Origin: an uncultured Chloroflexia bacterium
GTDB taxonomy: Bacteria; Chloroflexota; Limnocylindria; Limnocylindrales; CSP1-4
DNA: 64,000 nucleotides
NCBI GenBank assembly: GCA_963833225.1
Contig: CAWHXD010000007.1
Coordinates: 160,001-224,000, forward strand
Reading direction: 5' to 3'
Numbering within the stretch: position 1 is the stretch's first letter; each line of letters starts with the position of its first letter. The translations under genes were made by a program, and so were the position numbers. Positions 27,049 through 28,278 of this stretch are shown here, piece by piece. A model generated the notes under the pieces. It searched no databases, was not told the origin of the DNA, and saw only the letters and a list, made by a program, of their open reading frames with translations.

Positions 27049-28278
27049 TTACGGAAGGACCGGGACCGGCGTCGGGCCGACCTGGGTTCCTGCCTGGATC
27101 GTTCCCGTGGGATCGTGGCAAAGCTGGCACGTTCCACGGTTGTCGGCCTTGAGCAGCCGGCTGTCGCCGACCGGCGCAACGGCCCCACCCGGCATCTCCT
27201 GGTTGGCCGAGAAGGTGCCCGGCATCTGCGCGTTGGAACCATGCGACACGTGACACGTGATGCAGTTCCGCGACGTCGCATCGGAGGTGTGGCGATACGT
27301 GAAGATCGCATCGTCTTCCAGGGTGGTCCGGCCGTTGCCCAGATACCGGGAGTGGCACGTGAGGCACCACGCCGCGATCTGGGGCCCGAAGGTCGCGGAC
27401 TGGCCGTTCGGCGCGTCGTTTGCCGTGCCGCTCGTCCCGTTCCACGGAACCTTCTTCCGGAAGTAGTCGCCCGCCGTCGACGGCAGGCTGAGCGCGGCAA
27501 CCTGGCTCGCGAGGAGCGTGTTGGTGCCGTTCAGGGTCTGGATGATGGTGTAGTTGCGGGTGTCGCCGGCCGGCGGAAGCGCCGCGTCGGTGACGAATGC
27601 CTCCACGGCCGCCGGCTCGAACACGTCCGTGCCCGCAGCGGCGGGATCCGGGATCGGATTCAGGATCCGATACTGGCCGTTGCCGTGCGGGTTGTGGCAC
27701 GTGCCGCACTCGAGCTCGACATCGGGTCCGGCATAGGCGGTGGTGCTGTTGGGGCCGTTGCCCCAGGCCACGCCTTCCGCCGCCCCGACCACGCCGCCCA
27801 CGTTGGGCAGGTGGGCAGAGGTGACGTCCTGCGATCCGGCCGTCCGGACGGGCACCTTGGCGTTCTCGGAAATCCTGGTGCCCGTGTCGTAGGCGATGCG
27901 GACCGCTTCACCGGAACCGATCCGGGCGGTGACGAAGCCGCCACCGCGGGTATATCCGAGGACAGTGTCTCCGCGGGGATCGGTGGTGCCAAGCGTGTAC
28001 TGCATCCCGTCCTCGACGTCAACCGTCGAGCCGAGACTCGTCGCGCCGTGGCAGGTCAGACACAGCGCGACCCCCGAGTCGGCAACGAGCAGGGTGCCGT
28101 TGCCTTCGGAGCTCTGCGCCCGGTGGGCGCGATGGCAGCCGGCGCAACCGTCGGCATTGATGCCGTTGACGCCGCTGTTGTTCGCAGCCACGTGCGGTCC
28201 ACCGTCCGCGAAGACCGGGACCGCGGCAAGGAACAGCCAAAGACTTCCGGCTGCAATGAGCAGCATCAGCTTCTTCAA
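27049..28278 (-). CDS. Secreted hexaheme cytochrome c, OmcS-like nanowire candidate
   Basis: Strong RBS AAAGGAGGTG, TTG start, Sec signal; six CxxCH: CAGCHRAH, CLTCH, CGTCHNPHG..YRIL, WCLTCH..YRH, NCITCHVSH, CQLCH. Confidence 0.85.
   Translation of the reverse strand: MKKLMLLIAAGSLWLFLAAVPVFADGGPHVAANNSGVNGINADGCAGCHRAHRAQSSEGNGTLLVADSGVALCLTCHGATSLGSTVDVEDGMQYTLGTTDPRGDTVLGYTRGGGFVTARIGSGEAVRIAYDTGTRISENAKVPVRTAGSQDVTSAHLPNVGGVVGAAEGVAWGNGPNSTTAYAGPDVELECGTCHNPHGNGQYRILNPIPDPAAAGTDVFEPAAVEAFVTDAALPPAGDTRNYTIIQTLNGTNTLLASQVAALSLPSTAGDYFRKKVPWNGTSGTANDAPNGQSATFGPQIAAWCLTCHSRYLGNGRTTLEDDAIFTYRHTSDATSRNCITCHVSHGSNAQMPGTFSANQEMPGGAVAPVGDSRLLKADNRGTCQLCHDPTGTIQAGTQVGPTPVPVLP

What the first reader, a model, noticed from the sequence alone, without database searches (positions are those of the whole stretch)
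27049..28278. OmcS-like hexaheme cytochrome: candidate conductive nanowire subunit in a high-GC, apparently monoderm bacterium
Seen: a ~385 aa mature secreted protein with exactly six CxxCH and the strongest-looking RBS in the island. Known (OmcS sequence recalled from memory, not aligned): Geobacter OmcS has, in order, an N-terminal His, CxxCHxxH, LL..CLxCH, GGxF, LxCxxCHDPHG..YRIL, WCxxCH..RH, NCxxCHxxH and a terminal R..CxxCH. This protein shows the same order: GPH, CAGCHRAH, LL..CLTCH, GGGF, LECGTCHNPHG..YRIL, WCLTCH..YRH, NCITCHVSH, NRGTCQLCH. Inference: it may polymerise into a heme wire in a lineage where such filaments are not established.
Basis: partly seen in the sequence, partly recalled or inferred. 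Interest (0 to 1): 0.92.

Follow-up and report, generated by a model that had tools for sequence, protein, structure and literature searches.

The report
OmcS-like hexaheme cytochrome in Chloroflexota
A Chloroflexota bacterium that seems to lack an outer membrane encodes a secreted six-heme protein that is a true but distant relative of the Geobacter "nanowire" cytochrome OmcS, set in a conserved gene island for electron transfer across the cell envelope; whether it forms wires is untested.

Summary
Window 27049-28278 (-) encodes a 409-aa protein with a signal peptide, exactly six CxxCH motifs and the best Shine-Dalgarno site of the 13 island genes.

The OmcS likeness is real homology:
- A family profile hits OmcS (6ef8_A) at E 0.0036.
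- BLASTP to a natural OmcS orthologue gives E 1e-9.
- hhalign gives 99.45 % probability.
- All six non-motif histidines are conserved. One aligns with 6ef8_A His16, which by my recall ligates heme 5 of the next OmcS subunit.

The protein belongs to a Chloroflexota/Actinomycetota/Bacillota branch that also holds a Thermincola hexaheme, probably CwcA, which was already modelled in print as an OmcS-like wall-spanning polymer.

The core TPR, NHL-propeller and hexaheme gene trio recurs in most of 79 related loci. This window adds an OmcS-like octaheme, its own System II cytochrome maturation genes, an NrfH-type decaheme, and cytochrome b and Rieske genes. The genome shows no Omp85 or LpxC.

Polymerisation is not shown. 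I read it as a new member of a known kind. Interest is moderate to high.

The parts
27049..28278 (-). Hexaheme c-type cytochrome, 409 aa, Sec signal peptide (cleavage predicted after residue 24). OmcS/CwcA superfamily. Heme motifs start at C45, C73, C191, C305, C339 and C384. Conserved non-motif His: H29, H52, H156, H198, H330, H346.
28286..28295 (-). Shine-Dalgarno AAGGAGGTGA, 7 nt upstream of the TTG start. Longest SD match of the 13 island genes.
26952..27040 (-). Three consecutive stem-loops in the 163-nt spacer after the hexaheme stop codon (about 27005-27040, 26973-27000 and 26952-26971). The first stem, GGUGGCCGG/CCGGCCACC, is kept in 5 of 5 related loci folded, with variable loops.
   Evidence: (z -3.57, 0 of 200 shuffles as stable)
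28383..29468 (-). Membrane-anchored (TM about 41-70) six-bladed NHL beta-propeller, immediately upstream. It is the conserved partner of OmcS-type genes.
29468..30655 (-). Membrane-anchored (TM about 83-112) TPR protein. Weak CcmH/CycH- and NrfG-like TPR hits.
24618..26885 (-). 755-aa cytochrome: N-terminal hydrophobic segment, Pro/Thr-rich linker, Ig/FnIII-like beta-sandwich (about 124-304), then a heme domain with 7 CxxCH plus an invariant CxxxCH. The start of the heme domain (341-495) is homologous to the N-terminal half of the hexaheme family.
23108..24358 (-). Second TPR protein (start chosen at MTVPTLKP, 416 aa; TM about 189-215).
19161..23111 (-). Island-specific System II cytochrome c maturation set: CcdA/DsbD-TM 22356-23111, ResB 20880-22340, CcsA 19789-20865, ResA-like thioredoxin 19161-19760.
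17462..19153 (-). Membrane-anchored decaheme with an NapC/NirT/NrfH-type N-terminal quinol-dehydrogenase module.
15729..16805 (-). Cytochrome b (b6 plus subunit IV type).
14122..15726 (-). Second decaheme, 534 aa, with N-terminal signal and C-terminal TM (about 481-512).
30659..31195 (-). Rieske 2Fe-2S protein.
31207..31611 (-). Conserved 134-aa ORF with no Pfam family, syntenic in 16 of 79 loci.

Best explanation
The gene encodes a Sec-secreted, unanchored hexaheme c-type cytochrome that is a distant but genuine member of the OmcS/CwcA superfamily.

Most likely it is the abundant structural electron carrier of a conserved envelope-spanning electron-transfer island in a bacterium that appears to lack an outer membrane. 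The proposed working, with shown and inferred steps marked:
1. The apoprotein is exported and receives its six hemes from the island's own System II (CcdA, ResA, ResB, CcsA). The two membrane-anchored TPR proteins may help. (Genes shown; roles inferred.)
2. Subunits stack head to tail as in OmcS. His52 in CAGCHRAH aligns with 6ef8_A His16, which by my recall supplies the sixth ligand of heme 5 of the next OmcS subunit. Here the heme-5 motif is C339-H343. The result would be a continuous heme chain in or beyond the cell wall. (Residues shown conserved; polymerisation inferred.)
3. The membrane-anchored NHL propeller and the 755-aa cytochrome act as base or adapter. The 755-aa protein's heme domain starts with an OmcS-like head module. 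(Inferred.)
4. Electrons enter from the quinol pool through the NrfH-type decaheme and/or the Rieske and cytochrome b proteins with the second decaheme. (Inferred from domain content.)
5. The direction of flow, reduction of external acceptors or electron uptake, is not determined.

My odds: OmcS-superfamily homologue about 0.9; role in envelope or extracellular electron transfer about 0.6; true OmcS-like polymer about 0.4.
For: Homology to OmcS:
- The profile of 47 family members hits 6ef8_A OmcS at E 0.0036, second only to 6r2q_A.
- BLASTP to L072:10013-11368 gives E 1e-9, 25 % identity over 322 residues, collinear through hemes 1-4. That protein is a natural OmcS orthologue (E 8.9e-109 to 6ef8_A).
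- hhalign of the family against three OmcS-proper sequences gives probability 99.45 %, E 4.8e-22. The displayed columns cover hemes 5-6.

Heme ligands:
- In 46 hexahemes from 46 loci, all six CxxCH are 46/46. H29 is 46/46, H52 45/46, H198 46/46, H346 46/46, and H156 and H330 are 42/46.
- That gives exactly six conserved non-motif His for six hemes.
- CAGCHRAH aligns with OmcS residues 9-16, and NCITCH aligns with the OmcS heme-5 motif 328-332.

Context:
- An NHL homologue occurs in 67 of 79 related loci, within 3.5 kb in 56 of 79. The TPR homologue occurs in 54 of 79.
- In the OmcS-proper locus L072 a six-bladed propeller also sits directly upstream.
- Searched back against this genome, the L072 propeller and the L072 OmcS-like protein each hit only this adjacent gene pair.
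- The downstream 755-aa cytochrome carries an OmcS-like head module (hhalign 97.3 %, E 1.6e-11).
- The island has its own System II in addition to other CcsA and ResB copies elsewhere in the genome.
- An NrfH-like decaheme is present (E 1.7e-7 to 2j7a_C).
- No Omp85 and no LpxC were found in the 86 % complete genome.

Expression signals: the best SD of the island and a conserved 3' hairpin fit a subunit made in excess. This is inference.

Precedent: Thermincola CwcA was modelled on OmcS as a wall-spanning polymer and was insoluble when expressed in E. coli (PMC7911101, passages).
Against: - Single-sequence phmmer against the PDB found no OmcS even at E <= 10. Foldseek found nothing at E <= 0.001.
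- Heme spacing differs from OmcS. From first Cys to first Cys, hemes 4 to 5 are 34 residues here against 89 in 6ef8_A, and hemes 5 to 6 are 45 against 72. The 6ef8_A numbers are derived from the numbering printed.
- Residues 20-65, which hold heme motif 1 and His52, have pLDDT below 50. The geometry of His52 is therefore unknown.
- CxxCHxxH is also the general Paired_CXXCH_1 motif. The same profile matches 6r2q_A, which I recall as non-polymeric MtrA, better than it matches OmcS. Conservation of His52 alone does not prove an inter-subunit bond.
- There is no expression, localisation or filament evidence of any kind.
- The Rieske and cytochrome b genes at the island's ends could point to an ordinary respiratory role.
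- The physiological role of OmcS filaments is itself disputed in print (PMC11077965, seen only as title and start of abstract in the listing).
Confidence: 0.45

Rival explanations
1. The protein has the same fold and an electron-transfer role but does not polymerise. It would be a monomer or small oligomer held at the membrane or wall by the NHL propeller and/or the 755-aa cytochrome. It would act as a relay or terminal reductase, with His52 ligating a heme within its own chain or in a closed dimer.
For: - The CxxCHxxH unit belongs to the general Paired_CXXCH_1 domain.
- The same profile matches 6r2q_A, which I recall as non-polymeric MtrA, at E 2.3e-5, better than OmcS.
- The spacers between hemes 4-5 and 5-6 are much shorter than in OmcS (from numbering), so the tail interface may differ.
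- Three single-pass membrane proteins that could tether it are encoded beside it.
Against: - All six non-motif His, including the counterpart of 6ef8_A His16, are kept across 42-46 of 46 proteins. Those proteins span the split between OmcS-proper and the monoderm-labelled clade.
- The protein has no anchor of its own.
- The N-terminal arm is the only badly modelled part of the monomer. That is what one expects if it packs against a neighbour, though this is weak evidence.
Confidence: 0.3
2. The protein is a dedicated c-type subunit or electron carrier of a Rieske/cytochrome b respiratory complex. It would pass electrons to a cellular terminal oxidase or reductase, as the diheme cytochrome c does in actinobacterial bc complexes, with no extracellular role.
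For: - Rieske (30659-31195) and cytochrome b (15729-16805) genes bracket the island.
- Weak PDB profile rows to bc1 cytochrome c subunits appear at E 0.57-1.3.
Against: - Homologues of this Rieske protein and cytochrome b are found in only 12 and 7 of 79 related loci, and in 0 of 18 Actinomycetota-labelled loci. NHL and TPR accompany the hexaheme in 67 and 54 of 79. Many loci are cut by contig ends, so these are lower bounds.
- The genome has two further cytochrome b genes elsewhere.
- The bc1 rows are not significant.
- Together the island's four cytochrome genes carry 33 CxxCH and one CxxxCH motif, with a Pro/Thr-rich linker and an Ig-like domain. That is more than a bc complex needs.
Confidence: 0.12
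3. The apparatus is the same but is used for electron uptake, that is, oxidation of Fe(II), Mn(II), reduced humics or a partner cell. Electrons would flow inward to the Rieske/cytochrome b module.
For: - The closest described gene module with NHL proteins, CcsA/CcsB, an NrfG-like TPR protein and an extracellular multiheme cytochrome is the Uet cluster. It occurs in cathode-oxidising Tenderiales and in Gallionella (10.1101/2022.05.06.490989 and PMC9900912, passages).
- A Rieske/cytochrome b complex is the usual entry point for high-potential electrons (general knowledge).
Against: - OmcS and CwcA are both described in iron-reducing or anode-respiring organisms.
- An NrfH-type quinol dehydrogenase fits outward flow.
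- Nothing here measures potentials or direction.
Confidence: 0.15

Closest known systems
OmcS of Geobacter sulfurreducens (PDB 6EF8/6NEF), the hexaheme subunit of extracellular cytochrome filaments
   Same: - Similar mature length: about 385 aa here against the 407-residue solved chain.
- Six CxxCH motifs in the same order.
- All six extra His have counterparts, including the one aligned with His16, and the heme-5 motif is kept.
- The relationship is significant by profile and pairwise comparison, and OmcS is the best structural match.
- A six-bladed propeller gene lies directly upstream in an OmcS-proper locus too.
   Different: - Only 21-25 % identity.
- Spacers are much shorter between hemes 4-5 and 5-6, and longer between hemes 2-3 and 3-4.
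- There is an extra conserved Pro-rich C-terminal tail (DPTGT...GPTPVPxLP).
- The host shows no Omp85 or LpxC.
- The three genes furthest downstream in the OmcS-proper locus (a 740-aa protein and two LpoB-like lipoproteins) have no homologue in this genome.
- This island carries TPR proteins, System II, an NrfH-type decaheme, and Rieske and cytochrome b genes instead.
CwcA (TherJR_1122 / Tfer_0075) of Thermincola, the 'cell-wall cytochrome' of a Gram-positive iron reducer
   Same: - A hexaheme in a monoderm that is homologous to OmcS (18 % identity in PMC7911101).
- It has been proposed to polymerise across the peptidoglycan with heme 5 ligated by a neighbour's His.
- The Thermincola ferriacetica hexaheme L071 is a relative of the window protein (BLASTP E 3e-9 and 1e-5 for two segments). 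It branches at the base of the same 42-row clade.
- An NHL homologue lies next to it as well.
   Different: - The Thermincola protein has an extra N-terminal region of about 100 residues that is absent here.
- It is a separate long branch in the tree.
- The TPR, System II, Rieske and cytochrome b genes were not detected in that locus.
- That L071 is CwcA itself is my inference from organism label and architecture. It was not checked by accession.
Uet cluster of Tenderiales and Gallionella (extracellular electron uptake)
   Same: The gene module combines an extracellular multiheme cytochrome, NHL-repeat propellers, its own CcsA/CcsB and an NrfG-like TPR protein (passages).
   Different: Uet has a beta-barrel porin, a peptidyl-prolyl isomerase, triheme c7 proteins and a tetraheme extracellular cytochrome, and it occurs in diderms. 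No OmcS-type hexaheme is reported there.
MtrA/DmsE-type decahemes (6r2q_A) and the Paired_CXXCH_1 domain
   Different: The match comes from repeats of one short unit (several local stretches). The window protein has 6 hemes, not 10. The NCBIfam decaheme model scores 35.8 bits against a cut-off of 192.2.
OmcE and the archaeal cytochrome filaments
   Same: They work alike: an insulated heme chain with a heme ligated by a His of the adjacent subunit (PMC9473688 and PMC12954529, passages).
   Different: No significant relationship: 7tfs_A scores E 0.055 and is absent from the structural hit list.

Membership tests
OmcS family (hexaheme filament cytochrome, PDB 6EF8) | Six CxxCH motifs, collinear with those of OmcS | tested here: met
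   Searches show six motifs. Hemes 1-4 align and hemes 5-6. All six motif columns are 46/46 in an alignment that includes four OmcS-proper proteins.
OmcS family (hexaheme filament cytochrome, PDB 6EF8) | Statistically significant sequence relationship to OmcS | tested here: met
   Profile against PDB sequences gives E 0.0036. BLASTP to an OmcS orthologue gives E 1e-9. hhalign gives 99.45 %. The single sequence alone finds nothing.
OmcS family (hexaheme filament cytochrome, PDB 6EF8) | OmcS fold | tested here: met
OmcS family (hexaheme filament cytochrome, PDB 6EF8) | Full set of distal His ligands, including the counterpart of 6ef8_A His16 (which I recall as the inter-subunit ligand) and the heme-5 motif | tested here: met
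   By alignment only: H52 aligns with 6ef8_A His16 and C339-H343 with 328-332. H52 is 45/46. The other five His are 42-46 of 46. That His16 is the inter-subunit ligand is recalled (Wang et al. 2019 not held). That one heme is ligated by a neighbour's His is from passages.
OmcS family (hexaheme filament cytochrome, PDB 6EF8) | Head-to-tail polymerisation into a filament with cross-subunit His-heme ligation | not testable with these tools
OmcS family (hexaheme filament cytochrome, PDB 6EF8) | Companion genes: a six-bladed propeller directly upstream | tested here: met
   BLASTP of NHL361 against L072:8756-9772 gives E 3e-10. The reciprocal genome search hits only this gene pair. An NHL homologue lies within 3.5 kb in 56 of 79 loci.
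OmcS family (hexaheme filament cytochrome, PDB 6EF8) | Companion genes for outer-membrane secretion (the porin-like OscE-G of the osc operon) | tested here: not met
   The 740-aa protein and two LpoB-like lipoproteins of the OmcS-proper locus L072 give 0 of 3 hits in this genome at E <= 1e-3. No Omp85 was found. Equating these L072 genes with OscE-G is my inference. The osc operon is known to me only from passages in PMC13194489.
CwcA-type cell-wall hexaheme of monoderms (Thermincola) | Hexaheme homologous to OmcS and to the Thermincola protein | tested here: met
   BLASTP against L071 gives E 3e-9 (hemes 1-3) and 1e-5 (hemes 5-6). Both fall in the same 42-row clade with 99 % SH-aLRT support.
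CwcA-type cell-wall hexaheme of monoderms (Thermincola) | Host without an outer membrane | tested here: met
   No Omp85 and no LpxC match. The controls ring in 7 and 4 of 14 genomes. Relatives are labelled Chloroflexota or Limnocylindrales. Caveat: the genome is 86 % complete.
CwcA-type cell-wall hexaheme of monoderms (Thermincola) | N-terminal extra region of about 100 residues before heme 1 | tested here: not met
   In L071 the first heme motif follows about 110 residues after the signal peptide. The alignment to the window protein starts at L071 residue 106. Here heme 1 starts 21 residues into the mature protein.
CwcA-type cell-wall hexaheme of monoderms (Thermincola) | Location within the peptidoglycan | not testable with these tools
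   Only a cleavable signal peptide and the lack of any anchor can be read from the sequence.
MtrA/DmsE decaheme family | Ten hemes and a full-length match to the family model | tested here: not met
   The protein has six CxxCH. TIGR03508 scores 35.8 bits against a cut-off of 192.2.
Cytochrome c subunit of a Rieske/cytochrome b complex | Obligate co-occurrence with Rieske and cytochrome b genes | tested here: not met
   Rieske homologues occur in 12 of 79 loci and cytochrome b in 7 of 79, with 0 of 18 Actinomycetota-labelled loci having either. Contig ends make these lower bounds.

The most novel reading that the evidence does not exclude
Chloroflexota (Limnocylindria-type) and Actinomycetota, two large monoderm lineages, share a conserved gene island. 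The core is a TPR protein, an NHL propeller and an OmcS-like hexaheme. It often also holds an OmcS-like octaheme adapter, a private System II and an NrfH-type decaheme, and in Limnocylindria Rieske and cytochrome b genes as well.

This island would build an OmcS-type cytochrome wire without any outer-membrane machinery. The wire would be nucleated on membrane-anchored proteins, thread through the cell wall, and be plugged directly into the quinol pool.

If so, the propeller-plus-OmcS pair would be the ancient core of cytochrome-wire assembly. It would predate the split seen in the tree between diderm OmcS and the monoderm-labelled clade. Cytochrome wires would then be common in phyla not regarded as electroactive.
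Probability: 0.3. Interest if true: 0.85.

Novelty: new member of a known kind. Interest (0 to 1): 0.6.

Why it matters
How bacteria without an outer membrane pass respiratory electrons through a thick wall is poorly understood. The only worked example I found (Thermincola) rests on a homology model of an insoluble protein.

This locus shows the same OmcS-type protein conserved with a fixed set of partners. It recurs in 39 Chloroflexota-labelled and 18 Actinomycetota-labelled loci, including one from a cultured isolate (Intrasporangium sp. DVR, L015). That makes the wall-spanning-wire idea directly testable.

The locus also points to the propeller-cytochrome pair as the conserved core of OmcS-type systems. 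If the polymer is real, it widens the range of organisms expected to exchange electrons with minerals, humics or partner cells.

Tried and rejected
- Single-sequence phmmer of the hexaheme against PDB sequences returned only one irrelevant row and no OmcS at E <= 10. It was superseded by the profile search.
- Complex prediction was run with two copies of residues 25-409 (alignment A2) plus four hemes. Verdict: 'no answer', median score 0.10 against a mark of 0.42 (runs 0.35, 0.00, 0.10), and the controls were not folded. This is no evidence either way.
- The look-up of sequencing runs on window 24600-30700 listed no RNA holder. It found 13 DNA runs, each with a small share of words (0.06-0.13). 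I did not lay reads, and I draw no habitat or expression conclusion.
- Papers not held: Shen et al. 2025, PMC11845295, and Wang et al. 2019, PMC6720112. PMC10954620 held none of my six search terms. Supplements were not requested. Those of Shen et al., Baquero et al. and PMC7911101 may already list Chloroflexota or Actinomycetota homologues.
- Tree: the careful IQ-TREE search did not finish in 300 s, so the quick tree was used. The tool warns that the OmcS-proper branch and the Thermincola branch are long and may attract each other.
- The promoter and terminator scan of 14000-32500 found 0 promoter-like sites and 1 terminator-like site (fewer than in shuffles). It was uninformative in this 70 % GC DNA.
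- The ESM Atlas returned only generic 'cytochrome c3 / doubled CXXCH' clusters from Chloroflexota, Actinomycetota and Bacillota, and no structure search was possible.
- I considered and dropped the idea that the hexaheme is an MtrA-type periplasmic decaheme fragment, and the idea that it is an obligate bc-complex subunit.
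Full report
OBSERVATION. The ORF at 27049-28278 on the minus strand is real. It has a TTG start, encodes 409 aa, and begins with a typical Sec signal peptide (MKKLMLLIAAGSLWLFLAAVPVFA|DGGPH). The signal has no lipobox cysteine. A hydrophobic stretch covers residues 1-26 and the model has a helix at 2-23. The protein has exactly six CxxCH motifs.

The ribosome-binding site AAGGAGGTGA lies 7 nt before the start. It is the longest match to the SD consensus among the 13 island genes scored; the next best is 8 nt. 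That ranking depends on my start choices. Multiheme ORFs are rare in this genome. Only 11 stop-to-stop ORFs of 100 aa or more have three or more CxxCH. Four of them are in this island and four in a paralogous island on contig C18.

WHAT PFAM AND NCBIFAM SAY. They give only generic families: Paired_CXXCH_1 (two stretches), the MtrC/MtrF II-IV domain, cytochrome c7 and c3_2. No NCBIfam model reaches its cut-off. Database names for relatives are 'cytochrome c3 family protein' or 'predicted CXXCH cytochrome family protein'.

IS IT OmcS-LIKE? Four tests bear on this.
- The single sequence does not find OmcS among PDB sequences, even at E <= 10.
- A profile of 47 family members (alignment A2) does. 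6ef8_A OmcS scores E 0.0036, with query 178-313 matching OmcS 126-249. It is second only to 6r2q_A (E 2.3e-5), which matches through repeats of the paired-CXXCH unit. I recall that chain as MtrA, and titles the entry 'Structure of the Mtr complex'. OmcE (7tfs_A) is not significant at E 0.055.
- A natural bridge sequence settles the matter. L072:10013-11368 comes from a delta-proteobacterial MAG and is an OmcS orthologue (E 8.9e-109 to 6ef8_A over its whole length). The window protein aligns to it by plain BLASTP at E 1e-9, with 25 % identity over 322 residues. The alignment runs collinearly through heme motifs 1 to 4. hhalign of A2 against three OmcS-proper sequences (A3) gives 99.45 % probability and E 4.8e-22. 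The displayed columns cover heme motifs 5 and 6.

HEME LIGANDS. In A2 the nearly invariant histidines outside the motifs are H29, H52, H156, H198, H330 and H346. That is exactly six for six hemes.
- I extracted ORFs at 65 related loci plus the window protein and kept the 46 with 6-7 CxxCH and 280-520 aa; 20 of 66 were dropped. In these 46, all motif columns are 46/46. H29, H198 and H346 are 46/46, H52 is 45/46, and H156 and H330 are 42/46.
- The four misses at H156 and H330 are the four OmcS-proper rows. They have His a few residues away, so I suspect an alignment shift. I did not verify this.
- CAGCHRAH aligns with OmcS residues 9-16, so H52 corresponds to His16 in the numbering of 6ef8_A. 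NCITCH aligns with the OmcS motif 328-332.
- In OmcS, one heme is ligated by a His of the adjacent subunit (PMC9473688 and PMC12954529, passages). It is named as heme 5 in PMC7911101 (passage). That the donor is His16 is my recollection of Wang et al. 2019, which was not held.
- So, by alignment, the heme-5 motif and the residue I recall as the inter-subunit donor are both conserved here. This is necessary for an OmcS-like polymer but not sufficient. The same CxxCHxxH unit is a general paired-CXXCH feature, and the same profile matches 6r2q_A (recalled as MtrA) better than OmcS.

DIFFERENCES FROM OmcS. The spacing between first cysteines of successive motifs is 28, 118, 114, 34 and 45 residues here. 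In 6ef8_A it is 38, 93, 99, 89 and 72 (from the numbering printed). The Limnocylindria-type proteins also carry a conserved Pro-rich tail after heme 6. OmcS lacks that tail, and so do the Actinomycetota-labelled homologues printed.

WHO HAS IT.
- The window lies on a 612-kb contig of a 3.89-Mb, 20-contig genome that is 86 % complete with 3 % contamination.
- Named relatives are Chloroflexota or Candidatus Limnocylindrales.
- A scan of one genome per species returned 79 loci. By record label, which is my grouping, 39 are Chloroflexota, 18 Actinomycetota (including the isolate Intrasporangium sp. DVR), 1 Deinococcus MAG, 6 Bacillota-like (including Thermincola ferriacetica) and 15 other.
- A quick maximum-likelihood tree of the 46 hexahemes separates the four OmcS-proper rows from the other 42 rows with 99 % SH-aLRT support. 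Those 42 are all labelled Chloroflexota, Actinomycetota, Bacillota or Deinococcota. The Thermincola pair is at the base of the 42. The window protein sits in an 8-row Chloroflexota clade next to a mostly Actinomycetota clade. The tool warns about long branches.
- The genome has no match to Omp85 or LpxC, while the controls ring in 7 and 4 of 14 genomes. This fits a monoderm host within the limit of 86 % completeness.

THE ISLAND. All genes below are on the minus strand, listed from upstream to downstream:
- a 134-aa ORF with no family
- a Rieske protein
- a single-pass TPR protein
- a single-pass six-bladed NHL propeller
- the hexaheme
- a 755-aa cytochrome
- a second single-pass TPR protein
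- CcdA, ResB, CcsA and a ResA-like thioredoxin
- a membrane-anchored decaheme whose N-terminus is NrfH-like (E 1.7e-7 to 2j7a_C)
- cytochrome b
- a second decaheme with a C-terminal anchor

The genome has further CcsA, ResB and cytochrome b genes elsewhere. The maturation system in the island is therefore an extra, dedicated one.

SYNTENY. tblastn of the island's proteins against the 79 loci at E <= 1e-5 gives these counts. Many loci end at contig edges, so they are lower bounds.

| Island protein | Loci with a homologue (of 79) |
|---|---|
| NHL propeller | 67 (within 3.5 kb of the hexaheme in 56) |
| First TPR protein | 54 |
| 755-aa cytochrome | 44 |
| NrfH-type decaheme | 31 |
| Second TPR protein | 27 |
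| System II genes | 22-24 |
| 134-aa ORF | 16 |
| Rieske | 12 |
| Cytochrome b | 7 |

Rieske and cytochrome b were found in none of the 18 Actinomycetota-labelled loci. The conserved core is therefore TPR, propeller and hexaheme.

The propeller link reaches OmcS itself. In the OmcS-proper locus L072, a 338-aa six-bladed propeller lies directly upstream of the omcS-like gene. It matches the window's NHL protein at E 3e-10. I searched seven L072 proteins against this genome. The propeller hit only the NHL gene, and the first OmcS-like protein hit only the hexaheme gene. A second, 546-aa propeller had one weak hit elsewhere. The second OmcS-like gene, the 740-aa protein and the two LpoB-like lipoproteins had none.

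EXPRESSION SIGNALS. The 163-nt spacer after the hexaheme stop folds into three stem-loops (-81.1 kcal/mol, z -3.57, 0 of 200 shuffles as stable). The first stem, GGUGGCCGG/CCGGCCACC, recurs right after the stop codon in 5 of 5 related loci folded. Their loops and apical pairs vary. With the strong SD, this fits a subunit made in excess over its neighbours. That is inference; there are no expression data.

HOW IT MOST LIKELY WORKS.
- Shown: a secreted, unanchored hexaheme of the OmcS superfamily with all ligand positions kept. Beside it lie a dedicated maturation system, membrane-anchored partners and quinol-linked multiheme proteins. The genome shows no outer-membrane markers.
- Inferred: after maturation the subunits stack head to tail through the His52-to-heme-5' bond. 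The propeller and/or the OmcS-like head of the 755-aa cytochrome nucleate or anchor the stack. Electrons pass between the quinol pool (NrfH-type decaheme; Rieske and cytochrome b plus the second decaheme) and the outside. The direction is open.
- An unanchored soluble protein in a monoderm would be lost unless it binds something or polymerises. I count this as an argument for association, though not specifically for a long filament.

RIVALS. There are three: a non-polymerising relay or terminal reductase (0.3), a c-type subunit of a Rieske/cytochrome b respiratory complex (0.12), and the same apparatus used for electron uptake (0.15). Evidence for and against each is in the Rival explanations section.

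WHAT IS KNOWN.
- OmcS filaments and the osc companion operon are described for Geobacter. For the operon I saw only a summary passage (OscH folding, OscE-G secretion, OscD morphology; PMC13194489) and citations of Shen et al. 2025, which was not held.
- OmcS, OmcE and OmcZ homologues are said to be widespread (PMC12307469 and PMC12954529, passages). OmcE homologues were reported from five diderm phyla (10.1101/2025.10.22.684050, passage).
- For monoderms, PMC7911101 (passages) modelled the Thermincola hexaheme CwcA on OmcS at 18 % identity. The authors proposed a polymer in the peptidoglycan with heme 5 ligated by a neighbour's His, and found the protein insoluble in E. coli.
- PMC6344600 (passage) noted a Solirubrobacterales MAG with a cluster of cell-wall multiheme cytochromes.
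- 10.1101/2021.08.23.457424 (passages) discusses large multiheme cytochromes in Anaerolinea, not this family.
- The Uet cluster shows the same combination of NHL proteins, CcsA/CcsB and an NrfG-like TPR protein around an extracellular cytochrome in diderms.
- My full-text searches found no paper naming an OmcS- or CwcA-like protein in Chloroflexota or Actinomycetota. That covers only the held library, and not Shen et al. or any supplement.

VERDICT. The nanowire reading is plausible but untested, and a published hypothesis for Thermincola CwcA came before it. The protein is a new, divergent member of a known kind. The added value is threefold. The gene island is widely conserved across monoderm-labelled lineages. 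The propeller-cytochrome pair is shared with OmcS loci. A cultured isolate carries the island. Interest 0.6.

Noticed in passing
G000 contig C18:1-13053 (locus L002 covers 1-2002): A second, paralogous island starts inside a hexaheme gene at the contig edge. It runs: hexaheme fragment, a 591-aa ORF with 3 CxxCH, TPR, CcdA, ResB, CcsA, ResA, NrfH-type decaheme, cytochrome b, second decaheme. Its proteins are 49-78 % identical to the window's. It could be a true second copy or a binned fragment of a related organism (contamination estimate 3 %).
   Followed up: partly
window 24618-26885 (-), residues 735-740: The last heme site of the 755-aa cytochrome is CTLVCH, a CxxxCH motif. C735, C739 and H740 are invariant in all 16 aligned homologues, so an unusual CX3CH heme attachment site appears to be conserved.
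   Followed up: partly
window 26952-27040 (-); also L003, L004, L006, L007 and L008 just after the hexaheme stop codon: A conserved stem-loop follows immediately 3' of the hexaheme ORF. The stem is GGUGGCCGG/CCGGCCACC, with variable loop and apical pairs. It may be an intercistronic attenuator or an mRNA stabiliser. No Rfam search was run.
   Followed up: partly
L004:11426-13783; also L003, L006, L013, L050: Homologues of the 755-aa cytochrome carry in-frame stops. L004 has four, all inside the Pro/Thr/Glu-rich linker, and the others have one each. These could be assembly errors in low-complexity repeats or real disruptions. I left them as they are.
   Followed up: no
window 27049-27120 (-), residues 386-409: A Pro-rich C-terminal tail (DPTGT...GPTPVPxLP) follows the last heme motif and is nearly invariant in the Limnocylindria-type proteins. 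It is absent from OmcS and from the Actinomycetota-labelled homologues printed. Its function is unknown. It is not an LPXTG signal.
   Followed up: no
window 33593-42607 (+): Two very long ORFs (about 1196 and 1791 aa) with coding-like GC3 lie downstream of the island. They were not examined.
   Followed up: no
window 13179-14051 (+): An FdhD/NarQ-family gene lies next to the island's last decaheme, on the opposite strand. Any link to the island is unknown.
   Followed up: no
one search hit list (e.g. P0139 759 aa, P0142 779 aa, P0152 801 aa): Many longer relatives match the hexaheme's first 200-300 residues in several stretches. This suggests fused or tandem OmcS-like modules elsewhere, like the 755-aa neighbour here.
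   Followed up: no
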